From UHGV virus genome UHGV-0048975: a stretch of 20,483 bases of DNA. The stretch is one strand, 5' to 3'. A program made the position numbers and the translations under genes. Below the pieces are notes generated by a model, which made no database searches, was not told the origin of the DNA, and worked only from the letters and a program-made list of their open reading frames with translations. Shown here piece by piece: positions 678-13,934 of this stretch. How positions within the stretch are numbered: position 1 is the first letter of the stretch; every line of letters starts with the position of its first letter. Source of the DNA: a virus.

Positions 678-1754
678 TCAGTGGTGGTTATTACGGGGTA
701 ATGCCAACCGCTGCCGCCACTTTGTCGCCACTTTGTCGCCACTTGGCAGCGTTGCCAGAGGATTGAAACGGAGCGCCGTTTCCAGATGATCCGGTGCCAG
801 ATGTGCGTAACGCATAGTCATTTTTATATCGTGGTGTCCGAGAATTTTTTGTAAGGCCAGAATGTTTCCACCCGACATCATGAAGTGCGCCGCAAACGTA
901 TGGCGCAGAACGTGTGTGAGTTGACCGCGAGGGAGCACGATAGACGTTTTTTCCATCACGGATAAAAATTGAAAATAGCAGTCTGTGAAGAAATTGAACC
1001 CATCAAGCGCCATGATCTCTTCGTAAAGCTCTTTACTGATAGGGATGCTTCTGTTTTTCTTCCCCTTCGTTCTGACAAAGGTAATTCGGTATTTGGTCAC
1101 CTGTGAGCGGGTAAGATTTACGGCTTCACGCCAGCGTGCGCCTGTGCTTAAGCATATCTTAACTACCAGTGCCAGAATTGGGTCCTGACGTTTGCAATCA
1201 GCCAGCAATTCAACAATCTGCTCATGGGTAAGCCATGCCATCTCTTTTTCTGCGATGGTGAATTTTCGCATGTTCTCCAGTGGGTTCGGATACGACCATT
1301 CGCCCAGACGGGATAGTTCGCTAAAAACACTACTTAGATAGCTTTGCTCCAGGTTAATGGTGACCGGGCTTGCTCCTTTCTTCCATTTCTCGCTGAAGTA
1401 GATCTCGCCTGTCAGGCGTTTATCTCGATAGTGGGCAAACATTTTAGAGGTGAGATCGGTTGCAAGAGGATTGCCCAGAGCGTCAACCATCAACAGCAAT
1501 TTGTCATAGACATGCTGCCCAGCTGTCAGAGATTTACCATGTAGTTTGAACCATAGCTCAACCACGTCTTTCAGTGTTCGACGATCCACTGATTCACCCA
1601 GCCAGGGCTTTGCTTCGGTTTCTTCCATCGTGTGGCGCTCAAAAGCCAGTGCTTCGCCTTTGGTGACGAATTGTTTACGCACACGACGCCCACTTCGTCC
1701 GGCGGGGTAACATTCGCAAAGCCATTTCCCAGTGGTGAGTTTTCGTACTGCCAT
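678..1754 (-). CDS. int: Tyrosine integrase (P2/186 Int family)
   Basis: Begins MAVRKLTTGKWLCECYPAGRSGRRVRKQFVTKGEA, the typical P2-family Int N-terminus; C-terminal HxxR...RYAHL catalytic region. Start placed at the ATG at 1754; the 410-aa track ORF has an implausible N-terminal extension. Confidence 0.9.
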   Translation of the reverse strand: MAVRKLTTGKWLCECYPAGRSGRRVRKQFVTKGEALAFERHTMEETEAKPWLGESVDRRTLKDVVELWFKLHGKSLTAGQHVYDKLLLMVDALGNPLATDLTSKMFAHYRDKRLTGEIYFSEKWKKGASPVTINLEQSYLSSVFSELSRLGEWSYPNPLENMRKFTIAEKEMAWLTHEQIVELLADCKRQDPILALVVKICLSTGARWREAVNLTRSQVTKYRITFVRTKGKKNRSIPISKELYEEIMALDGFNFFTDCYFQFLSVMEKTSIVLPRGQLTHVLRHTFAAHFMMSGGNILALQKILGHHDIKMTMRYAHLAPDHLETALRFNPLATLPSGDKVATKWRQRLALPRNNHH

Positions 1755-1942
1755 AAAAAATGCCCTCCAGTAGAGAGCATTTTCACTGTATGTATAACCA
1801 GTGTCAATGTATGAAATCCTACGACCATACATCTCACTGAAGCCATAATTAAGTTGGCTATTCTTTTTGCTATGTGAGCATGTAACTTTTGCGGTTAACC
1901 TGCGGCTCATTTTTATTTTAGACGCAGATATAAAAGCAAAAG

Positions 1943-2149: not shown

Positions 2150-2719
2150 CTATTTAACATACTTGACTGTTAAACTTATAATTTTACCAATTATTTCAAT
2201 GTCTTCTATCTTGCATTCGAAGGCTCTGTTTCCACCCTCGACGAAGATTCTTCCACCGGGTAAACGAGTAATGTCACGGATCGTTATTTCGCCATCAATA
2301 CTTATTACCCATTTACCATCACGTATATCATCAAATTCTTTATCACAAATAAATTCAGAATTGTTATCTGTGATGACAAAAGGTTTTTTAAACGTAGAGG
2401 GTAGAAATCCCTTATCAAAAATATAAAAACCGTCTTTCTGCAATGCTCCATCAGACAATAAATATTTTTCTACTTCTATAGTATTTGTATTTGCTGATGC
2501 TTGCTTTGAACCATGCCCTGTTGTTAGCCAATTAAGCGAGGTGCCCGTTTCAAGGGCGCACTGGATTACCCAATCTGCTGGAAAAATATCACGCATATAG
2601 CGCGTTGCCATGGTGCTCTTAGAAACACCTAAATGATCACATAGAGCCTGACGGGTACCGAACCCATATGCTTCAACTAAACGTTCTATGGCTTTCTTAC
2701 CGCCGCTATTGAAATCCAC
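2150..2719 (-). CDS. cI: Phage 186 CI-like immunity repressor (HTH N-terminal domain)
   Basis: Segment RLVEAYGFGTRQALCDHLGVSKSTMATRYMRD...CALETGTSLNWLTTGHG resembles the 186 CI N-terminal domain (from memory). Start taken as GTG at 2719 with GGAGGA just upstream; the track's longer ORF (to 2806) would cover the putative pR promoter. Confidence 0.7.
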   Translation of the reverse strand: MDFNSGGKKAIERLVEAYGFGTRQALCDHLGVSKSTMATRYMRDIFPADWVIQCALETGTSLNWLTTGHGSKQASANTNTIEVEKYLLSDGALQKDGFYIFDKGFLPSTFKKPFVITDNNSEFICDKEFDDIRDGKWVISIDGEITIRDITRLPGGRIFVEGGNRAFECKIEDIEIIGKIISLTVKYVK

Positions 2720-2746
2720 AAGTCCTCCAAAGAAATCCAAAATTCG

Positions 2747-2775
2747 TTGACAGATTCCAAAAGCGATCTTAAAGT
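2747..2775 (+). promoter_or_regulatory. Candidate rightward early promoter (pR/Pe-like): TTGACA, 17 bp, TAAAGT
   Basis: Perfect -35 hexamer at 2747-2752 and 4/6 -10 at 2770-2775 with 17-bp spacing, about 90 bp upstream of the cox/apl-like ATG. Confidence 0.35.
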
Positions 2776-2864
2776 TGAACCAGAAGTGTTCTTTTGGAGC
2801 CTTCACTACTAATCACGACAAACAACGGCTCGCCACAAGCCATATCTAGAAGGAATGTTGCCTT

Positions 2865-3068
2865 ATGACACCTAACATTTCAATTACTCTGAATACACCA
2901 CATGTCACAATCGAACGTTATAGCGAACTGACTGGCCTTTCTATTGATACGATTAACGACATGTTGGCTGATGGCCGACTACCTCGTCATCGTCTTCGTA
3001 AAGACAAAAAACGTGAAAAGGTAATGATTAACCTGGCTGCTCTGACTGTTGATGCTTTGTCTGCTTAA
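2865..3068 (+). CDS. Cox/Apl-like small DNA-binding protein (excision and switch regulator), putative
   Basis: First gene of the rightward operon, divergent from the repressor; 67 aa, basic C-terminus ([12 protein letters not shown]) and HTH-like segment. Assignment is mainly by position. Confidence 0.55.
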
Positions 3069-3132
3069 TAGACGTCTATTTTCGCAATAAGACGCTGAGT
3101 TCGATTTTGCGATAAGTTCGGAGTTGAAAACC

Positions 3133-3642
3133 ATGTTTGATTACCAAGTTTCCAAACATCCACATTTTGATGAAGCCTGTCGTGCATTCGCACTGCGCCA
3201 CAATCTGGTGCAACTGGCAGAACGTGCGGGCATGAATGTGCAGATTCTGCGGAACAAGCTGAACCCAGCTCAACCTCATTTATTAACCGCACCAGAAATC
3301 TGGCTGCTTACCGATCTGACTGAAGATTCAACGTTGGTAGATGGTTTTCTGGCACAGATTCATTGTCTGCCATGTGTACCGATTAATGAGGTAGCAAAAG
3401 AGAAACTGCCGCATTACGTCATGAGCGCAACTGCAGAGATCGGGCGTGTTGCAGCAGGTGCGGTATCTGGTGATGTAAAAACTAGTGCCGGTCGTCGTGA
3501 TGCTATCAGCAGCATTAACTCTGTAACACGACTGATGGCGCTGGCTGCTGTTTCATTGCAGGCCCGTTTACAGGCTAATCCTGCGATGGCGAGTGCAGTT
3601 GATACCGTGACTGGCCTCGGTGCTTCATTCGGTTTGCTGTGA
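3133..3642 (+). CDS. cII: Phage 186 CII-like transcriptional activator
   Basis: [45 protein letters not shown]...[24 protein letters not shown] matches my recollection of 186 CII; ATG at 3133 preceded by GGAG. Confidence 0.8.
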
Positions 3643-4933: not shown

Positions 4934-5787
4934 GCACCATCCTGAAATGGGCGGGAAATAAAACCGCCATTATGTCCGAACTGAAAAAGCATCTTCCTGC
5001 TGGCCCGCGACTGGTTGAACCTTTCGCGGGTTCCTGTGCAGTGATGATGGAGACGGAGTACCCCAGCTATCTTGTTGCGGATATTAATCCTGATTTAATC
5101 AACCTCTATAAAAAGGTTGCTGCTGATTGTGAATCGTTTATATCTCGCGCCAGAGTTTTATTTGAGATCGCAAACAGGGGGGGGGCTTATTACAACATAA
5201 GGCAGGAGTTTAATTACTCAACTGAAATTACTGATTTCATGAAAGCGGTATATTTCCTGTATCTCAATCGTCACGGTTACCGTGGTTTATGTCGCTATAA
5301 CAAGAGCGGGCATTTCAACATTCCCTACGGTAATTATAAAAATCCGTATTTCCCTGAAAAAGAAATTCGCGCATTTGCAGAAAAAGCCCAGCGAGCAACG
5401 TTTATCTGCGCCAGCTTTGATGAAACGCTGGCGATGTTGAAGGCGGGGGATGTGGTGTATTGCGATCCGCCGTATGACGGTACGTTTTCCGGCTATCACA
5501 CTGATGGTTTCACTGAAGATGACCAGTATCACCTGGCATCCGTTCTTGAACATCGGTCATCAGAAGGACATCCGGTCATTGTTTCTAACAGTGATACATC
5601 CCTGATCCGTTCGCTGTATCGCAATTTTACTCACCACTATATCAAGGTAAAACGCAGCATCGGTGTGGCAGCTGGCGAGGGTAAATCAGCAACAGAAATC
5701 ATTGCTGTTTCCGGGCCGCGCTGCTGGGTGGGATTTGATTATTCGCGTGGCGTGGATAGTTCTGCCGTGTACGGAGTACGTGCATGA
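4930..5787 (+). CDS. dam: Orphan DNA adenine methyltransferase (Dam / D12-class N6-MTase)
   Basis: LKWAGNK N-terminal motif and DPPY catalytic motif; ATG at 4930 overlaps the upstream stop (ATGA), GGAGG 6 nt upstream; no restriction partner nearby. Confidence 0.9.
5177..5185 (+). repeat. Homopolymeric G9 tract inside the dam coding frame
   Basis: Nine consecutive G read directly (codons AGG GGG GGG in ANRGGAYY). Confidence 0.9.
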
Positions 5788-8198
5788 GCCATGCCGATAT
5801 GAACAACTGCTGCGGCTTTAACGAGGCTGCCGCAGCGTTCTCATGGAACAGCCCGAAAAAGGCCATTAACCCTTATCTGGACCCGGCGGAAGTTGCGCCG
5901 GTTTCTGCGCTTTCAAACCTGATCGCTCTGTACGCTGCCGATAACGAACAGGAACACCTGCGCCGCGAGGCACTGAGTGATCAGGTCTGGGAGCGTTATT
6001 TCTTTAATGAATCCCGTGATCCTGTCCAGCGCGAAATGGAGCAGGATAAGCTCATTAGTCGGGCAAAGCTGGCGCATGAGCAGCAGCGTTTTAATCCAGA
6101 TATGGTCATTCTGGCGGACGTCAATGCCCAGCCTTCCCATATCAGCAAGCCGCTGATGCAACGTATTGAATACTTCAGCAGCCTGGGCAGGCCAAAGGCT
6201 TATTCCCGCTATTTGCGTGAGACGATTAAGCCATGTTTGGAGCGACTGGAGCATGTACGCGACAGCCAGCTATCTGCATCTTTTCGTTTTATGGCAAGCC
6301 ATGTAGGGCTGGACGGCCTGCTGATTCTGCCTGAAATGAGTCAGGATCAGGTGAAACGCCTGTCTACTCTTGTCGCTGCGCATATGAGCATGTGTCTTGA
6401 TGCCGCTTGTGGTGATTTGTACGCCACCGATGATGTTAAGCCAGAAGAAATCCGCAAGACATGGGAAAAGGTGGCAGCAGAAACCCTGCGACTGGATGTT
6501 ATCCCGCCTGCGTTTGAGCAACTTCGTCGGAAAAGAAACCGCCGTAAACCCGTGCCCTATGAACTCATTCCGGGTTCGCTGGCGCGTATGTTGTGCGCCG
6601 ATTGGTGGTACCGGAAATTATGGAAGATGCGTTGCGAATGGCGGGAAGAGCAGTTGCGTGCTGTTTGCCTGGTCAGCAAAAAAGCATCTCCCTATGTCAG
6701 CTATGAAGCCGTGATGCATAAACGTGAGCAGCGCCGTAAGTCGCTGGAGTTTTTCCGTTCTCATGAACTGGTGAACGAAGACGGCGACACGCTGGACATG
6801 GAGGATGTGGTAAACGCCAGCAGCAGCAACCCGGCGCATCGCCGCAATGAGATGATGGCCTGTGTTAAAGGTCTGGAGCTTATCGCAGAAATGCGCAGTG
6901 ACTGTGCCGTTTTCTACACTATCACCTGTCCGTCGCGTTTCCATTCCACGCTCAATAACGGCAGACCAAACCCGACCTGGACAAACGCGACGGTAAGACA
7001 AAGCAGCGATTATCTGGTCGGCATGTTTGCTGCATTTCGTAAGGCTATGCACAAAGCCGGGTTGCGCTGGTATGGCGTGCGGGTGGCTGAACCGCATCAT
7101 GACGGCACAGTTCACTGGCACCTGTTGTGTTTCATGCGCAAAAAAGACCGCCGCGCCATTACTGCATTGTTGCGTAAGTTTGCCATCCGTGAAGACCGCG
7201 AGGAGCTGGGCAATAACACGGGGCCACGCTTTAAGTCTGAGCTGATAAACCCGCGCAAAGGTACGCCAACAAGCTACATCGCGAAATACATCAGTAAGAA
7301 CATTGACGGGCGTGGTCTGGCTGGCGAGATCAGCAAGGAAACGGGTAAATCCCTGCGTGATAACGCTGAATACGTTAATGCCTGGGCGTCTCTGCATCGT
7401 GTTCAGCAATTCCGCTTCTTTGGTATTCCGGGGCGTCAGGCTTACCGTGAACTTCGCTTGCTGGCTGGTCAGGCGGCAAGGCAACAGGGTGACAAAAAAG
7501 CAGGTGCGCCGGTACTGGATAACCCGCGTCTTGATGCCATTCTGGCTGCTGCTGATGCTGGTTGTTTTGCCACCTACATCATGAAGCAGGGCGGCGTACT
7601 GGTTCCCCGTAAATATCACCTCATCAGAACCGCTTATGAAATCAACGAAGAGCCGACCGCCTATGGCGATCACGGCATTCGTATTTATGGCATCTGGTCA
7701 CCCATTGCAGAGGGCAAGATCTGCACTCATGCAGTGAAGTGGAAAATGGTTCGTAAAGCCGTTGACGTTCAGGAGGCGGCAGCCGACCAGGGCGCTTGCG
7801 CCCCTTGGACTCGTGGCAATAACTGTCCCCTTGCTGAAAATTTGAACCAACAGGATAAAGATAAATCAGCTGATGGGGACACCAGAACGGACATTACCCG
7901 CATGGATGACAAGGAATTGCACGATTACCTGCACAGTATGAGCAAAAAAGAGCGCCGGGAACTGGCAGCAAGGTTACGCCTAGTTAAGCTGAAACGGCGT
8001 AAAGACTACAAACAGCGAATTACAGATCATCAGCGACAGCAGCTCGTCTATGAGCTGAAGTCCAGAGGATTTGATGGCAGCGAGAAAGAGGTCGATTTAC
8101 TCCTACGTGGTGGCAGTATTCCGTCAGGAGCAGGCCTGCGTATCTTCTATCGGAACCAGCGTTTGCAGGAAGATGATAAGTGGCGGAACCTGTATTAA
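5784..8198 (+). CDS. P2 gpA-like rolling-circle replication initiator
   Basis: 804 aa; HUH-type motif [10 protein letters not shown] and downstream YIAKYISK tyrosine motif; position after dam as in P2-like early operons; start overlaps dam stop (ATGA). Confidence 0.85.
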
Positions 8199-8289
8199 TT
8201 ACGCAGGTTAACAATTCGTGCTCTTAATAATACCAGGCATATCAGGCTGATGAACGTAAAAAACGTTTTACATCAGTAATATTATTATA

Positions 8290-8309
8290 TACTGTAAATA
8301 CAAACAGTG
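8290..8309. promoter_or_regulatory. LexA box (SOS operator) TACTGTAAATACAAACAGTG
   Basis: CTGT-N8-ACAG core at 8292-8307, 16/20 match to the LexA consensus TACTGTATATATATACAGTA; lies about 40 bp upstream of the 8350 ATG and overlaps the likely -10 region. Confidence 0.7.
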
Positions 8310-8349
8310 GTTATGTATACAGTGTTGCTTTGGTGTCATAGGAGGAAAG

Positions 8350-8538
8350 ATGCAGGACTATTTTTTGGAGTCTTTGAAGCTCCAGCGCATTGATTTTTTT
8401 CTTAAGCTTGTAGCGGCTAGTGAGTGTAGTGATGAAGAGAAGGGGCTGGCTCTGCAGTGGGTTTCTGAACTGACAGATGAACTCATGGCAAAAATCAGAA
8501 CCCACGAATACAACCGCTCAATGGATGTCATCAGCTGA
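8350..8538 (+). CDS. Small SOS-controlled protein (62 aa); candidate Tum-like antirepressor N-terminal part
   Basis: AGGAGG RBS, downstream of the LexA box, at the position of the 186 SOS operon (tum); function by position only. Confidence 0.5.
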   Translation: MQDYFLESLKLQRIDFFLKLVAASECSDEEKGLALQWVSELTDELMAKIRTHEYNRSMDVIS

Positions 8539-8548
8539 GGTGGCTTTT

Positions 8549-8782
8549 ATGCGCATTGAAATAATGATCGATAAAGAGCAGAAGATTAGCCAGTCTACCC
8601 TGGACGCCCTTGAATCCGAGCTTTACCGTAATTTGCGCCCTCTGTATCCCAAAACAGCAATTCGTATCCGTAAGGGCAGCGCCAATGGCGTTGAGCTGAG
8701 CGGGTTAAAACTGGATGAAGACAAAAAGCGAGTGATGGAAATAATGCAGCAGGTCTGGGAGGACGATAGCTGGCTGCATTAA
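8549..8782 (+). CDS. DinI-family protein
   Basis: MRIEIMIDKEQKISQSTLDALESELYRNLRPLYP...VMEIMQQVWEDDSWLH resembles DinI (MRIEVTIAK...ETWESADDWF); GAGGTGG RBS; second gene of the LexA-controlled pair. Confidence 0.8.
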   Translation: MRIEIMIDKEQKISQSTLDALESELYRNLRPLYPKTAIRIRKGSANGVELSGLKLDEDKKRVMEIMQQVWEDDSWLH

Positions 8783-8790
8783 GAAACATT

Positions 8791-8821
8791 GTAGGCGTCA
8801 GAACTTGATTCTGACGCCTAC
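8791..8821. terminator. Perfect 11-bp stem hairpin (GTAGGCGTCAG / CTGACGCCTAC) between convergent operons
   Basis: Seen directly; the T-rich run is better on the minus-strand side, so it probably terminates the minus-strand three-gene operon and possibly acts bidirectionally. Confidence 0.5.
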
Positions 8822-8877: not shown

Positions 8878-9561
8878 CTATGATTGAAGGGTGACTTTTT
8901 TTAACGTATCAAAAACGATTTTCGTAAACTCATTCTCATTTCTAACATCAATATAAGCAAGGCCGCTATTGGTGATCTTGAGCTTACCGGAATATTCTAA
9001 TGAATTAACAGAGCAAACAAGCCTGTCAATTCTTATTTTTTTACCCTCTAATTCTTCTTTATAATACTTCCTAAGATCATTGCTGCCAATTATTTGCATT
9101 TTAGCTGTGGCGTAATCAGAAACTCTAACCCTTGAAATATCAAGTTGTGTTAAATTGATATTTACACTTGAAGATATTTCATTAAGCCAGTCTATAGGGT
9201 TTATGTCAATTTCTTCCAAACTAACACCTAAGCCAAGATTTTTTACCAAAGCCTGCGAAAAAGGCTTTAAAGTTCTGGGTGGGTTAGTAATCTGCATTAC
9301 AGGAAGAGAGTCTAAAGCCACGCTAAAATTTGTGGTGCGATATTCGATTCTTTCAACGGTAGTTTCGCTTCCGTCAAAGCTTAATATTTTATCATGATAA
9401 ACAATACGCTCGACAAAGCGACCATTTGCAAAATCATGGCGTATTTTATCAAAAATGAACCCTTTCCCTTTATCCTCTGTAAAAGAATCAAGAGAAAGAC
9501 GTCTAACGGCTGTTTCAAACTCAAGCCGTATGTTTAACTTAAGCCATTTAACCTTTTTCAT
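8878..9561 (-). CDS. Hypothetical protein, third gene of three-gene cargo operon (227 aa)
   Basis: ATG at 9561 lies inside the 3' end of the upstream gene (14-nt overlap); AT-rich; no recognisable motif. Confidence 0.75.
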   Translation of the reverse strand: MKKVKWLKLNIRLEFETAVRRLSLDSFTEDKGKGFIFDKIRHDFANGRFVERIVYHDKILSFDGSETTVERIEYRTTNFSVALDSLPVMQITNPPRTLKPFSQALVKNLGLGVSLEEIDINPIDWLNEISSSVNINLTQLDISRVRVSDYATAKMQIIGSNDLRKYYKEELEGKKIRIDRLVCSVNSLEYSGKLKITNSGLAYIDVRNENEFTKIVFDTLKKVTLQS

Positions 9562-10627
9562 CTTCGTTCACCTCTGATCCTATTATTATATTATAGGCAT
9601 TTTCAGCGGCGGACTCAATTAATTCACTAATATGTTTTTTCTCTTGTGCCGTTGCCGCGCGAATGGTTACATTGAAACCGTCTTCTTTTTGATTGTTTAT
9701 ACCTTTAATTTGATAGGCAAAGTCACAGCATTTTTCTGAGTCTTTGAAAAATGCTTCGACGTTGATTCTGTCTCCAATTCCACTTGTCGGCTTTGAAGAC
9801 CATGCAATACGCCCGATATAATAACCTTTCTCATGTAGTTGAGAAAATATAGCTGAACTATTTACCCCTTCACCATTAAGGACGGCTTTCTTAACAAATC
9901 CGGTATCAATAGTTTCTTCCTTGTCTTCATCCTCACTAGCATCAGTACTGCGATTTAATTCGACTTTTGTTACGTCATCAGTCTCATAACCGCGTAGACC
10001 ATTCATTAATTCCTGAAAAAACTGACTTCGCAATGTAGGATCAGTTATTGCTAGTAATGATATTTCGAAGCGCTCGATAGGTTCGGACTTGATTTTAGAT
10101 AGCTCGTTTTGCAAGCTCTCAATAACTTTTTTTGCCTCGGGGTTTTGAGGCATACGTACTTCAACTTTGTCAGCTCCAGGGCGAAGTTCTATTATAACAT
10201 TCCGCTTGTCGATCTGACGTAATGCAGTTTTAGACAGGTCTATTTCTTCATATTTGTATTCTACTGTAAGCGAGCCATCTTTTTTAGCTACAATATTCAG
10301 GCTTTGACCTTTACTAGGGGAGCATGTTTTTTTTAGTGCTTCAGCAGCACTTTTTAATTCGGCCTGATTTGTTGAGGTTTGGAAGCTCACACTAGTAGTG
10401 CTTTCCCTTGGGTCATATGTTTTGACCAGTTTTTTTATGTGTTCTAATTCATTAAATCCGTGAGGAAGTTTGGATATTTCCTCGATTAGTATTTCCTTGT
10501 CGAGTTCTGGTGATAAAAACACACCTCGATTCAACAATAATTCATGCAACTTTGCAGCGGTTATCCTTTTATGATGTAATGCATCATAAATATTTTTATC
10601 AGTTGCGAAATATAGTTTTTTAGCCAT
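9548..10627 (-). CDS. Hypothetical protein, second gene of three-gene cargo operon (359 aa)
   Basis: Start overlaps the upstream stop (TAATG); acidic internal stretch; no Walker A or other known motif seen. Confidence 0.8.
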   Translation of the reverse strand: MAKKLYFATDKNIYDALHHKRITAAKLHELLLNRGVFLSPELDKEILIEEISKLPHGFNELEHIKKLVKTYDPRESTTSVSFQTSTNQAELKSAAEALKKTCSPSKGQSLNIVAKKDGSLTVEYKYEEIDLSKTALRQIDKRNVIIELRPGADKVEVRMPQNPEAKKVIESLQNELSKIKSEPIERFEISLLAITDPTLRSQFFQELMNGLRGYETDDVTKVELNRSTDASEDEDKEETIDTGFVKKAVLNGEGVNSSAIFSQLHEKGYYIGRIAWSSKPTSGIGDRINVEAFFKDSEKCCDFAYQIKGINNQKEDGFNVTIRAATAQEKKHISELIESAAENAYNIIIGSEVNEDEKG

Positions 10628-11628
10628 TATCGTTGCTCCATGCCGATTTGTTCAAGATTATATTCAACAACAATTTTGTCTGTCTTGTCGAAGTCAATTT
10701 TAAGAAAAAGTCTTTCATCCTCGCCTAAGAGCCAGTCTGTGCTGTATTTCTTTTTCGCTCTTTCAAAATGATGAATGGCATTTTCATTTGGGTGAATGTG
10801 ACAATGGCGTAATACGATTGGTTTACCTTCGGTTAATATCTGATAAGTTGATAACATATCAAAGAAGTAAACGAATTCGTCTACTGAATCCCCCGGTTGA
10901 TTGTAATAAACAACATATCCCTCAGGGTTTTTATCCCTGAGCCAACTGAAAGCCTCATGCTTTATTATAATGTATGGTGATGTTAATAATTCAATTGTTG
11001 CAGGTGTTGTCTGATTAATAGGGTGCTTTATTCTTGTTAGGGAAAGATCTGGATAATAATATGTGAACTTATCAGGTTGAGGAAGTTTGCCTGAACCAAT
11101 TAACTTAGTTATGTCAGAAGATATGTTTATCAAATCTGATATTTTATAAGGGTCAAGCAAATGTAGTTTGATGTTTGGAGGGCAATTTATAGATGAGTGA
11201 TCTAATTTTTTTGTAATATTCTCATAGAAGTCTTTATCATATAAATTATCATGGTTATATAAGAATAATAACCCTCTTACGTTATAACCTAAAGAATCAT
11301 CATGAACATATTTCAATCGCCATTCTTCACTGACATTTGCACACTCGGTAGCTAAAGCAAGCGATGTTAAAGCTCCCTCGACTATTTTTTTCCCAATAGT
11401 ACCTTCTGCATAGCTTTTGAGGTCTGTGTTGAGATAGACCATTTCCTCCTCATATGGATCTATGTAGAAAAATACAACATCGCTTGGATGTGTTTTCTTG
11501 GAATGAGCCTCTTGGCAACAATCCCAATTCATGTCCGCTCTAGCGGCACGATCCCATTTGAACACTGAGAAAATATCATCAGAAATCTTACCCGCGACTC
11601 GTTGTATAGCCGAAGTCTCTCCACCCAT
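10627..11628 (-). CDS. Hypothetical protein, first gene of three-gene cargo operon (333 aa); weak PD-(D/E)xK-like signature
   Basis: GGAG RBS 9 nt upstream of the ATG; possible nuclease-like pattern FFYIDP...MVYLNTDLK (tentative); AT-rich. Confidence 0.8.
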   Translation of the reverse strand: MGGETSAIQRVAGKISDDIFSVFKWDRAARADMNWDCCQEAHSKKTHPSDVVFFYIDPYEEEMVYLNTDLKSYAEGTIGKKIVEGALTSLALATECANVSEEWRLKYVHDDSLGYNVRGLLFLYNHDNLYDKDFYENITKKLDHSSINCPPNIKLHLLDPYKISDLINISSDITKLIGSGKLPQPDKFTYYYPDLSLTRIKHPINQTTPATIELLTSPYIIIKHEAFSWLRDKNPEGYVVYYNQPGDSVDEFVYFFDMLSTYQILTEGKPIVLRHCHIHPNENAIHHFERAKKKYSTDWLLGEDERLFLKIDFDKTDKIVVEYNLEQIGMEQR

Positions 11629-13046: not shown

Positions 13047-13075
13047 GGCATTATTTGCCCTACTTTATTATAATT
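13043..13075. terminator. Bidirectional terminator hairpin GTAGGGCA-TTATT-TGCCCTAC followed by a T-rich run
   Basis: 8-bp stem overlapping the stop codon of the 285-aa gene, then TTTATTATAATT; lies between convergent genes. Confidence 0.6.
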
Positions 13076-13630
13076 CATATGGTTGGAAAGAAATTATTTC
13101 ATCACTCAACCATTCATTAATTTCTTTAATTCGCTTTTGCAGCGGTATCAATTCGTTACGGACAAACACCTTACTCGCCTTTTCCACATCCCCAAATCCC
13201 CCAACATTACTCGGCATAATCCCCATCATCTGCGGCGGAACGCGGTGTGCAGCCATCATGTCGTCTCGGCTCACGTTCTTAATGTTCAGAAACTCATCCT
13301 TTGCCGCTACCTCTGACAGCGGGATTATCTGAATCCCGTCCTTTTTGCCGTTGGGTGAATACATAAACAGGTTGCGGAAGTTGCCCGGTCCTTTAGCGCT
13401 TTTCATGGCCTGGCGGATGTTGTTCACGTCCTCCTGGTTCTGCGCGGCGTCGGTCATATACATGATGAACCCTGCATGACTGCCATTGATGTAGTATTTA
13501 CGCCGGAACAGCGTAGCGGACTCGTTCAGCAAGGCGGACGGAATGGCGGACAGATATTCCGGCAGGCCGTAAATTTCCTGGTTCAGGTCCGGCTCCATCA
13601 GGTGAAAGATACTGCCTTTAGTGAACTCGT
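13068..13630 (-). pseudogene. Portal protein gene remnant (3' half only; P2 gpQ-like)
   Basis: C-terminal portal-like sequence (...GIMPSNVGGFGDVEKASKVFVRNELIPLQKRIKEINEWL...); only ~180-190 codons where P2-type portals are about 340; the 5' boundary is approximate. Confidence 0.65.
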
Positions 13631-13639
13631 AGGGCTGCG

Positions 13640-13934
13640 TGGTTACACCCTGAACGTGGTGATTGAGGATTTCAGCGGCGACCAGAATCTGCTGATGGCC
13701 CCGGTTTTGCTGTGGCTGCGGGATAACCAGCCCGATGCCATCAATAACCCGGCGTTACGGGAAAAACTATTTACCTTTGAGGTGGATATTCTGCGCAACG
13801 ATGTCTGTGATATCAGCCTTAACCTGCAACTGACGGAACGTGTGCTGGTCAGCACTGACGGCAGTGTGTCGAGCGTTGAAGCGGTAGCAGAACCCGATGA
13901 ACCTGAAGAAATGTGGACGGTGAAACGTGGCTGA
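13640..13934 (+). pseudogene. Tail completion protein R gene remnant (3' part; P2 gpR-like)
   Basis: YTLNVVIEDFSGDQNLLMAPVLLWLRDNQPD...LNLQLTERVLVS resembles P2 gpR; the upstream part of the track ORF is antisense to the portal remnant, so the N-terminus is missing. Boundary approximate. Confidence 0.6.

What the first reader, a model, noticed from the sequence alone, without database searches (positions are those of the whole stretch)
8267..8782. SOS-controlled two-gene induction module: LexA box, small Tum-like ORF and separate DinI-like gene
A strong LexA box (CTGT-N8-ACAG, 16/20 to consensus) overlaps the promoter of a pair made of a 62-aa protein and a DinI-family protein in a different frame. 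In phage 186 the corresponding SOS operon encodes the Tum antirepressor that inactivates CI, which is how that phage responds to DNA damage without a cleavable repressor. Here the function appears split into two ORFs; which of them, if either, is the antirepressor is open.
Basis: partly seen in the sequence, partly recalled or inferred. Interest (0 to 1): 0.5.

Follow-up and report, generated by a model that had tools for sequence, protein, structure and literature searches.

The report
Fels-2-type split tum SOS operon
This is the well-known DNA-damage switch of phage-186/Fels-2-like prophages: a LexA-repressed promoter drives a small antirepressor gene (tumA-like) and a separate DinI-like gene. 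It is real and probably functional, but it is ordinary and already described.

Summary
A LexA box (TACTGTAAATACAAACAGTG, 8290-8309, 16/20 to consensus) overlaps the -10 of a promoter (TTTACA-17 nt-TACTGT). The promoter precedes a 62-aa ORF (8350-8538) and a 77-aa DinI-family ORF (8549-8782), and a strong hairpin (8791-8821) follows. The module lies just after gpA in a 186-like prophage that has a 186-type CI repressor.

It is about 93% identical in DNA to the same locus of Salmonella phage Fels-2, and ORF1 is 61/62 identical to STM2728. It has the same layout as tumA-tumB of phage PSP3. The literature already states that Fels-2 and PSP3 carry tum split in two, with the upstream gene as the antirepressor.

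Profile comparisons link ORF1 to the N-terminal half of 186 Tum, and ORF2 is 41% identical to the C-terminal half. The split form is the norm: only about 3 of 150 family representatives are fused to DinI. The frame relation between the two ORFs varies among relatives, so no programmed frameshift is involved. The module occurs in 1125 of 5426 complete E. coli genomes.

Verdict: already known, low interest. Two side observations: an identical TumA accompanies very divergent CI repressors, and this prophage copy lacks its capsid, packaging and lysis genes.

The parts
8267..8272 (+). -35 hexamer TTTACA of the p95-like SOS promoter
   Evidence: Read from the sequence. TTTACA, a 17-nt spacer and TACTGT recur in SopEPhi, MLG42 and ST437phi4.1 with different spacers. 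The layout matches the annotated p95 of phage 186. The generic promoter scan missed it because TACTGT matches TATAAT at only 3 of 6 positions.
8290..8295 (+). -10 hexamer TACTGT, which is the left arm of the LexA box
   Evidence: Phage 186 p95 is annotated with the identical -10 (TACTGT) inside its LexA site.
8290..8309 (.). LexA box TACTGTAAATACAAACAGTG (16/20 to consensus)
   Evidence: It is conserved in 13 of the 14 sequences compared (window plus 13 related phages). The Fels-2 ortholog operon is induced by DNA damage (PMC2225428).
8305..8324 (.). Possible second, degenerate LexA-like site (CAGTGGTTATGTATACAGTG, 14/20 by hand count) overlapping box 1. Only the right half-site TACAGT is well conserved.
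   Evidence: My reading of the output: TACAGT is kept in all Fels-2-type relatives while neighbouring bases vary. Not tested further, so its status is uncertain.
8340..8345 (+). Shine-Dalgarno AGGAGG for ORF1
   Evidence: Sequence; 4 nt before the ATG.
8350..8538 (+). ORF1, a tumA-like gene (62 aa): the predicted CI antirepressor, homologous to the N-terminal half of 186 Tum
   Evidence: phrog_698 at E 3.6e-38, and 186 Tum residues 1-70 hit the same PHROG at 5.9e-6. hhalign gives E 4.6e-4, colinear over 3-44. ORF1 is 98% identical to Fels-2 STM2728. AlphaFold2 predicts a two-helix hairpin, pLDDT 89.
8537..8540 (+). Shine-Dalgarno GAGG for ORF2, overlapping the ORF1 stop codon
   Evidence: Sequence; 8 nt before the ATG.
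8549..8782 (+). ORF2, a tumB/dinI-like gene (77 aa): a DinI-family protein
   Evidence: Pfam PF06183 at E 3.2e-24. It is 41% identical to 186 Tum residues 71-145, 90% to PSP3 tumB and 88% to the Fels-2 DinI-like protein.
8791..8821 (.). 14-bp G+C-rich hairpin between the SOS operon and the convergent cargo genes. It is the likely terminator for both; a T-run follows only on the minus strand.
   Evidence: Folding energy is -26.4 kcal/mol, z = -7.4 on the + strand and -6.3 on the - strand.
2150..2719 (-). 186-type CI repressor, the presumed target of ORF1. The mechanical ORF runs to a GTG at 2806; the likely start is the GTG at 2719, behind GGAGG.
   Evidence: phrog_4 transcriptional repressor at 5e-42. 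Alignment with the CI of 186, Fels-2 and PSP3; start-codon analysis. No S24 peptidase domain appeared: it aligns with the 186-type C-terminal domain.

Best explanation
This is the SOS operon of a 186/Fels-2-like (Peduoviridae) prophage in its common 'split tum' form.

Proposed mechanism:
1. In undamaged cells, host LexA binds the box at 8290-8309. The box covers the -10 of the promoter, so the operon is shut off.
2. DNA damage activates RecA and LexA cleaves itself. The promoter then fires and a bicistronic mRNA is made, ending at the 8791-8821 hairpin.
3. ORF1 (TumA-like, a 62-aa helical hairpin) binds the 186-type CI repressor non-covalently and stops it binding its operators. This derepresses the early lytic promoter. 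CI has no self-cleavage domain, so this is the only route from SOS to induction.
4. ORF2 is a DinI-type RecA-filament modulator that tunes the SOS signal. It is not needed for antirepression.

Shown here: the sequence elements, their conservation, and homology of both ORFs to the two halves of 186 Tum.

Shown by others: damage induction of the Fels-2 ortholog operon, and antirepression by full-length 186 Tum.

Inferred: that ORF1 alone is the antirepressor. It is also inferred that ORF1 acts on the N-terminal DNA-binding domain of CI.
For: Context:
- gpA (Pfam Phage_GPA, 1.7e-126) lies immediately upstream.
- A 186-type CI, apl and cII lie at 2150-3642.

Promoter and LexA box:
- The layout is the same as the annotated p95/LexA site of 186.

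ORF1 corresponds to the N-terminal half of Tum:
- Both hit phrog_698, phrog_8554 and phrog_1993.
- hhalign of the two families gives E 4.6e-4 over columns 3-44 of both.
- The syntenic position is identical.

ORF2 corresponds to the C-terminal half of Tum and to DinI.

Relation to described phages:
- The whole module is about 93% identical to Fels-2.
- PSP3 is annotated tumA ('UV induction of prophage') plus tumB.
- PMC3121763 states that Fels-2 and PSP3 have tum split by a stop codon, and that the PSP3 upstream gene carries the antirepressor activity.
- The 186 record describes full-length Tum as inhibiting CI DNA binding. It describes the DinI-like truncated product only as modulating SOS induction.

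ORF1-type genes can stand alone:
- ESSI2_ev040 and vB_YenM_06.16-2 have a LexA box plus a tumA-like gene and no adjacent DinI gene.

Expression:
- The Fels-2 DinI-like gene STM2727 is induced 5.5- to 14.8-fold by the mutagen MX, and STM2726-STM2727-STM2728 responds as one operon (PMC2225428).

Target domain:
- TumA divergence tracks the CI N-terminal domain (Mantel rho 0.79, p about 0.001) but not the C-terminal domain (rho 0.19, p 0.13).
Against: - No experiment exists on this exact sequence.
- Direct BLASTP of ORF1 against 186 Tum finds nothing, and identity is only about 20%. Homology rests on profiles and synteny.
- The PSP3 result is a personal communication quoted second-hand. PSP3 TumA itself is very divergent from ORF1.
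- I could not read Bunny et al. 2002.
- An identical TumA sits next to CI proteins only 38-56% identical to this one. The TumA-CI pairing is therefore not demonstrated for this CI.
- The covariation test has n = 12 related phages, and the C-terminal domain may simply be saturated.
- The prophage here has lost its capsid, packaging and lysis genes, so the module can no longer lead to virions.
Confidence: 0.85

Rival explanations
1. The DinI-like ORF2, or an obligatory ORF1+ORF2 complex that rebuilds a 186-like Tum, is the real antirepressor. ORF1 alone would be insufficient.
For: In 186 the antirepressor characterised biochemically is the full 146-aa fusion (PMC3121763). The two genes are adjacent, only 10 nt apart, and co-transcribed in most relatives.
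Against: tumA-like genes occur behind LexA boxes with no DinI gene in ESSI2_ev040 and vB_YenM_06.16-2. About 147 of 150 family representatives are stand-alone. TumA and DinI identities are uncoupled among relatives: 100%/88% in 4LV2017 and 89%/99% in SopEPhi, which argues against a co-evolving heterodimer. The 186 DinI-like truncated product is annotated only as a modulator. Activity in PSP3 is attributed to the upstream gene.
Confidence: 0.08
2. A programmed frameshift or readthrough joins ORF1 and ORF2 into one 186-like Tum polypeptide. The ORF2 frame is open for 24 codons upstream (8477-8548) and overlaps the end of ORF1.
For: The ORF list shows a 101-aa ORF at 8477-8782 in the ORF2 frame that overlaps ORF1. 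An A5 run lies at 8489-8493.
Against: The frame offset between the two start codons differs among relatives: offset 1 here and in Fels-2 and ST13phi12.1, offset 2 in SopEPhi and ST437phi4.1, offset 0 in MLG42 and PSP3. Spacers range from 3 to 13 nt (coordinates). No single recoding mechanism fits these. No canonical slippery heptamer is present. ORF2 has its own Shine-Dalgarno and ATG. None of 120 close homologues is fused to a DinI domain, although a few carry non-DinI C-terminal extensions of up to 38 aa.
Confidence: 0.02
3. ORF1 is a decaying 5' remnant of a once-fused tum gene and has no function. The module now only supplies a DinI-like protein.
For: The prophage is defective. Databases call ORF1 'hypothetical protein'.
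Against: The 62-aa ORF is intact and 82-100% identical in protein sequence across nine Fels-2-type phages of Escherichia, Salmonella, Klebsiella and Yersinia, several of them isolated as phages. It is present in 1125 of 5426 complete E. coli genomes. 26 of 62 positions are invariant in 31 diverse homologues. It has a strong Shine-Dalgarno sequence. The stand-alone form is the majority state of the whole family.
Confidence: 0.03
4. The LexA-box match is fortuitous and the promoter is not SOS-controlled.
For: The box is 16/20 to consensus, not perfect. A second exact CTGT-N8-ACAG at 8642-8657 shows that chance matches occur in this window.
Against: The box is conserved upstream of the tumA-like gene in 13 of the 14 sequences compared, including distant ones whose flanks do not align. 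It overlaps the -10 exactly as in 186 p95. The Fels-2 ortholog operon is damage-induced.
Confidence: 0.02

Closest known systems
Fels-2 STM2728 / STM2726.1 (STM2727) SOS operon of Salmonella Typhimurium LT2
   Same: Same position after gpA, same promoter and LexA box (one base differs in the box), ORF1 61/62 identical, DinI-like protein 88% identical, same 10-nt spacer; about 93% DNA identity overall.
   Different: Fels-2 continues into a third gene (STM2726, the position of 186 orf97). Here the operon ends at a hairpin and is followed by convergent cargo genes. The CI of Fels-2 is only 38% identical to the CI here.
Phage PSP3 tumA-tumB
   Same: A two-cistron split tum behind a LexA box (19/20), located after gpA. 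tumB is 90% identical to ORF2. tumA is annotated 'UV induction of prophage'.
   Different: PSP3 TumA is a very divergent member of the family: tblastn with ORF1 finds no match, and only a C-x(n)-LAL-x-LIA-D/E-L-type motif is visibly shared. The genes are in the same frame, 3 nt apart.
Coliphage 186 Tum (p95-tum SOS operon)
   Same: A LexA-repressed promoter with the box over the -10 TACTGT. The N-terminal half is homologous to ORF1 and the C-terminal DinI-like half is 41% identical to ORF2. The target is a 186-type CI without a cleavage domain.
   Different: In 186 the two halves are one 146-aa polypeptide, with internal starts that also yield a separate DinI-like product. Here they are separate cistrons. 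ORF1 is only about 20% identical to the N-terminal half of Tum.
Gifsy-1/2/3 LexA-controlled antirepressors GfoA/GftA with adjacent dinI homologue (Lemire et al. 2011)
   Same: The same logic: a LexA box, then a small (under 100 aa) antirepressor plus a DinI homologue in one operon, acting on a non-cleavable repressor (PMC3121763).
   Different: The gene order is reversed (dinI first). Those are lambdoid phages with a different repressor family. Sequence relationship to ORF1 was not tested here.

Membership tests
Tum/TumA antirepressor family (N-terminal domain of 186 Tum) | Sequence homology to the N-terminal ~60 residues of 186 Tum | tested here: met
   ORF1 and 186 Tum residues 1-70 hit the same PHROGs: phrog_698 at 3.6e-38 and 5.9e-6, and also phrog_8554 and phrog_1993. 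hhalign of the two families gives E 4.6e-4, colinear over 3-44. Pairwise BLASTP alone finds nothing.
Tum/TumA antirepressor family (N-terminal domain of 186 Tum) | Gene sits directly behind a LexA-box promoter, downstream of gpA, in a P2/186-like genome | tested here: met
   same layout as the 186, Fels-2 and PSP3 records.
Tum/TumA antirepressor family (N-terminal domain of 186 Tum) | The cognate repressor is a 186-type CI (HTH N-terminal domain plus oligomerisation C-terminal domain, no self-cleavage) | tested here: met
   The CI at 2150-2719(-) aligns end to end with the CI of 186, Fels-2 and PSP3 and hits phrog_4 at 5e-42.
Tum/TumA antirepressor family (N-terminal domain of 186 Tum) | The protein binds CI and blocks operator binding; expression induces the prophage | not testable with these tools
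   Known only for 186 Tum (Shearwin et al. 1998, as cited in PMC3121763 and PMC7708051) and reported for PSP3 TumA by personal communication.
186-type fused Tum (single 146-aa antirepressor-DinI polypeptide) | N-terminal domain and DinI domain in one reading frame | tested here: not met
   A TGA stop at 8536-8538 and a frame change separate them. Relatives show all three frame relations.
DinI family (Pfam PF06183) | Match to the DinI profile above the curated cut-off | tested here: met
   ORF2 scores 85.5 bits against a cut-off of 24.2, covering profile positions 1-63 of 63. It also hits phrog_189 at 3.9e-30.
DinI family (Pfam PF06183) | Binds RecA filaments and modulates SOS | not testable with these tools
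   Inferred from family membership only.
LexA (SOS) regulon promoter | CTGT-N8-ACAG palindrome overlapping the core promoter | tested here: met
   Located at 8292-8307, 16/20 to the 20-mer consensus, and overlapping the -10.
LexA (SOS) regulon promoter | LexA binding and DNA-damage inducibility | not testable with these tools
   Indirect only: Fels-2 STM2727 is induced 5.5- to 14.8-fold by MX, and STM2726-2728 is scored as a responsive operon (PMC2225428).

The most novel reading that the evidence does not exclude
The same TumA (98-100% identical) is carried by phages whose CI repressors are only 38-56% identical overall. Against this window's CI, their N-terminal HTH domains are 67-79% identical and their C-terminal domains 23-42%.

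If TumA recognises the conserved N-terminal domain, one SOS-induced TumA could inactivate many different CI repressors of this phage group. Whether those repressors confer different immunities was not tested. Even a defective prophage like this one, which lacks capsid and lysis genes, could then act as a trans-inducer of co-resident Fels-2-type prophages. This would be a P2-family counterpart of the Gifsy 'crosstalk'.
Probability: 0.35. Interest if true: 0.4.

Novelty: already known. Interest (0 to 1): 0.15.

Why it matters
It matters little as a discovery. The LexA-controlled Tum antirepressor route to prophage induction has been a textbook alternative to repressor cleavage since 186. The split tumA/tumB form has been noted for Fels-2 and PSP3.

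Two practical points remain:
1. Annotation pipelines still call the antirepressor gene 'hypothetical protein' or, spuriously, 'levan regulatory protein'. This holds in about a fifth of complete E. coli genomes and in most phage records. A name transfer (TumA-like antirepressor) is therefore warranted.
2. A nearly invariant TumA paired with highly divergent CI proteins raises a testable question about antirepressor specificity and cross-induction among P2-like prophages.

Tried and rejected
- BLASTP of ORF1 against 186 Tum gave no alignment. Homology had to be established with PHROG profiles and hhalign.
- Pfam gave no family for ORF1.
- A PDB sequence search with the ORF1 family profile gave nothing meaningful; the best hit had E 1.4.
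- A Foldseek search of the AlphaFold2 model against PDB returned only generic helical hairpins, none at E <= 0.001. The fold is uninformative.
- A small hairpin over the ORF1 stop and ORF2 Shine-Dalgarno (8527-8544), flagged by the terminator scan, is not more stable than shuffles (z = -0.63). I dropped it as a coupling element.
- The second CTGT-N8-ACAG at 8642-8657 was rejected as a LexA site: it is inside the coding sequence, has a G+C-rich spacer, and is not conserved in Fels-2.
- The generic sigma-70 scan did not find the promoter. I assigned it by comparison with the annotated 186 p95 and by conservation.
- Bunny et al. 2002 could not be retrieved, and a literature search for 'TumA/TumB/PSP3' returned only noise.
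It is supporting evidence only; the Pfam hit is the real evidence.

Full report
**Context**

The window carries the left and early region of a 186/Fels-2-like (Peduoviridae) prophage.
- An integrase lies at 678-1910(-).
- A 186-type CI repressor lies at 2150-2806(-) as a mechanical ORF. Its likely real start is the GTG at 2719.
- An Apl/Cox-like gene lies at 2865-3068 and a cII-like gene at 3124-3642.
- The replication gene A lies at 5784-8198 (Pfam Phage_GPA, E 1.7e-126).

The finding lies in the 150-bp gap after gpA and the two small genes that follow.

**Observation**

The region reads as follows:
- TTTACA (8267-8272), a 17-nt spacer, then TACTGT (8290-8295).
- The 20-mer TACTGTAAATACAAACAGTG (8290-8309) is a LexA box, 16/20 to consensus, with an exact CTGT-N8-ACAG core.
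- AGGAGG (8340-8345) precedes ORF1 (8350-8538, 62 aa).
- GAGG overlaps the ORF1 stop codon.
- ORF2 (8549-8782, 77 aa) is in another frame.

The core pattern occurs twice in the window against 0.23 expected. The other copy, inside ORF2, is not conserved in Fels-2 and is taken as chance. ORF2 is a clear DinI-family protein: PF06183, 85.5 bits against a cut-off of 24.2. A 14-bp G+C-rich hairpin at 8791-8821 follows, with folding energy -26.4 kcal/mol and z = -7.4. It separates the operon from convergent genes.

**Identity with described phages**

- The 661-bp region matches 67 phage records, mostly Klebsiella, Salmonella and Escherichia peduoviruses.
- It is about 93% identical to the corresponding locus of Salmonella phage Fels-2.
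- ORF1 is 61/62 identical to Fels-2 STM2728. It is 100% identical in Escherichia phage Cartapus, vB_EcoM-813R9 and many Klebsiella prophages.
- In Fels-2 the downstream gene is annotated as a DinI family protein 'similar to TumB of PSP3'.
- The PSP3 record annotates tumA ('similar to 5' end 186 tum; UV induction of prophage') and tumB ('similar to dinI and 3' end of 186 tum') at the same position.
- In phage 186 the same position holds p95, with a LexA site over the -10 TACTGT, and the single 146-aa tum gene. The record describes the full-length product as inhibiting CI DNA binding. It describes the internally initiated DinI-like product as modulating SOS induction.

**Homology of the two halves**

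ORF2 is 41% identical to 186 Tum residues 71-145 (E 1e-24).

ORF1 gives no BLASTP alignment with Tum, but three lines of evidence connect them:
- ORF1 hits phrog_698 (3.6e-38), phrog_8554 and phrog_1993. 186 Tum residues 1-70 hit the same three PHROGs (5.9e-6, 3.4e-12 and 1.5e-23), in register.
- hhalign of a 31-sequence ORF1 family against a 30-sequence 186-Tum-N family gives E 4.6e-4, aligning columns 3-44 of both.
- The syntenic position is identical.

AlphaFold2 predicts a confident two-helix hairpin for ORF1 (pLDDT 89). There is no informative match to solved structures.

**Split versus fused**

- None of the 120 closest ORF1 homologues is fused to DinI. Most longer database entries are start-codon overcalls that read through the LexA box; a few carry non-DinI C-terminal extensions.
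- Many close relatives of the 186 Tum N-terminal domain are also 63-72-aa stand-alone proteins, some already named 'Tum protein'.
- A profile search of 1.84 billion cluster representatives found 156 family members. Of the best 150, 116 are 75 aa or shorter and only three contain a DinI domain.
- The split form is therefore the rule, and the 186 fusion is the exception.

The offset between the two start codons is 1 here and in Fels-2, Cartapus and ST13phi12.1. It is 2 in SopEPhi and ST437phi4.1, and 0 in MLG42 and PSP3. Spacers range from 3 to 13 nt (coordinates). Each ORF2 has its own ribosome-binding site. A programmed recoding event is not supported.

**Regulation**

- An exact CTGT-N8-ACAG lies 18-48 nt upstream of the tumA-like start codon in 13 of the 14 sequences compared (this window plus 13 related phages). 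These include distant relatives (186, PSP3, ESSI2_ev040, vB_YenM_06.16-2) whose flanking DNA does not align.
- The 14th, ST13phi12.1, has one mismatch.
- In the Fels-2-type phages I checked by eye (SopEPhi, MLG42, ST437phi4.1), the -35 TTTACA, the 17-nt spacing and the -10 TACTGT are kept while the spacer sequence changes.
- A conserved TACAGT about 10 nt downstream of box 1 might be half of a second, degenerate LexA site. I did not test this.
- A published microarray study of Salmonella TA100 (Fels-2+) lists STM2727 among LexA-regulon genes induced 5.5-, 11.1- and 14.8-fold by the mutagen MX. It scores STM2726-STM2727-STM2728 as a responsive operon (PMC2225428).

**Which gene is the antirepressor**

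- Lemire et al. [quoted passage not shown] They also state that in PSP3 the upstream gene carries the antirepressor activity. The source is G. E. Christie, as a personal communication cited in Bunny et al. 2002, which I could not retrieve.
- Independent support found here: ESSI2_ev040 and vB_YenM_06.16-2 have a LexA box plus a tumA-like gene with no adjacent DinI gene.
- TumA and DinI identities are uncoupled among relatives: 100%/88% in 4LV2017 and 89%/99% in SopEPhi.

I therefore assign antirepression to ORF1 and SOS modulation to ORF2. This assignment is inferred, not shown for this sequence.

**A point beyond the literature I could read**

- TumA is 98-100% identical in phages whose CI is only 38-56% identical to the CI here.
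- The CI alignment shows a conserved N-terminal HTH domain (67-79% identity within the ORF1-type group) and a very divergent C-terminal domain (23-42%).
- Across 12 phages, pairwise TumA identity correlates with CI N-terminal domain identity (Mantel Spearman 0.79, p about 0.001). It does not correlate with C-terminal domain identity (0.19, p 0.13).
- This fits TumA acting on the DNA-binding domain, and it predicts cross-reactivity between phages of this group.
- The sample is small and phylogenetically non-independent, and the C-terminal domain may be saturated. I treat this as a hypothesis only.

**State of this prophage copy**

Homology to the portal gene Q stops at about 13645. There it is joined to the C-terminal two-thirds of tail gene R. 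The terminase, scaffold, capsid, head-completion and lysis genes are therefore missing. The SOS module and the switch look intact, but this prophage cannot make particles.

**Verdict**

The feature is the already described Fels-2/PSP3-type split tum SOS operon, and it is present in 1125 of 5426 complete E. coli genomes. Its novelty class is 'already known' and its interest is low. The remaining value is an annotation fix (ORF1 = TumA-like antirepressor) and the specificity question above.

Noticed in passing
window 13068-13934: The prophage has an internal deletion. A C-terminal portal (Q) fragment at 13068-13598(-) abuts the C-terminal two-thirds of gpR, and homology to relatives' portal genes stops at about 13645. 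Terminase, scaffold, capsid, head-completion and lysis genes are absent, so the prophage is defective.
   Followed up: partly
window 8878-11628 (-): Three convergent cargo genes (227, 359 and 333 aa) sit between the DinI-like gene and the portal remnant. They match PADLOC models Hp3, Hp2 and Hp1 over their full length (E 2e-157 to 3e-248), which marks a candidate anti-phage defence trio in the variable cargo region between the SOS operon and portal gene Q. A three-gene block of the same order, strand and near-identical sizes follows the DinI-like gene in Klebsiella phage ST437-OXA245phi4.1, within a stretch 85% identical in DNA.
   Followed up: partly
window 2700-2810 (-): The ATG start of CI in close relatives (ATGTCAAC) reads CTGTCAAC here, and the local frame differs. 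The likely start is the GTG at 2719, preceded by GGAGG (2728-2724), which gives a 189-aa CI rather than the 218-aa mechanical ORF.
   Followed up: partly
L005:2498-3439 (Klebsiella phage 4LV2017) and L013:3219-4079 (PSP3): The CI repressors of these two phages (313 and 286 aa) contain two tandem copies of the N-terminal HTH domain (alignment A4).
   Followed up: no
window ~8630 (inside ORF2): Identity to Fels-2 drops from near 100% to about 85% partway through the DinI-like gene. TumA and DinI identities are also uncoupled across relatives. Both suggest a recombination breakpoint inside the gene.
   Followed up: partly
window 8305-8324: A conserved TACAGT half-site follows the LexA box in all Fels-2-type relatives while adjacent bases vary. 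It may be a second, degenerate LexA site (my reading).
   Followed up: no
window 8350-8538 and database homologues: ORF1 homologues are annotated 'hypothetical protein' or 'levan regulatory protein' in RefSeq, UniRef and most phage records. Many gene calls extend the N-terminus through the LexA box. The module is present in 1125 of 5426 complete E. coli genomes.
   Followed up: yes
window 8642-8657: A second exact CTGT-N8-ACAG lies inside the DinI-like coding sequence. It is not conserved in Fels-2 (ACGG there) and is judged a chance match.
   Followed up: yes
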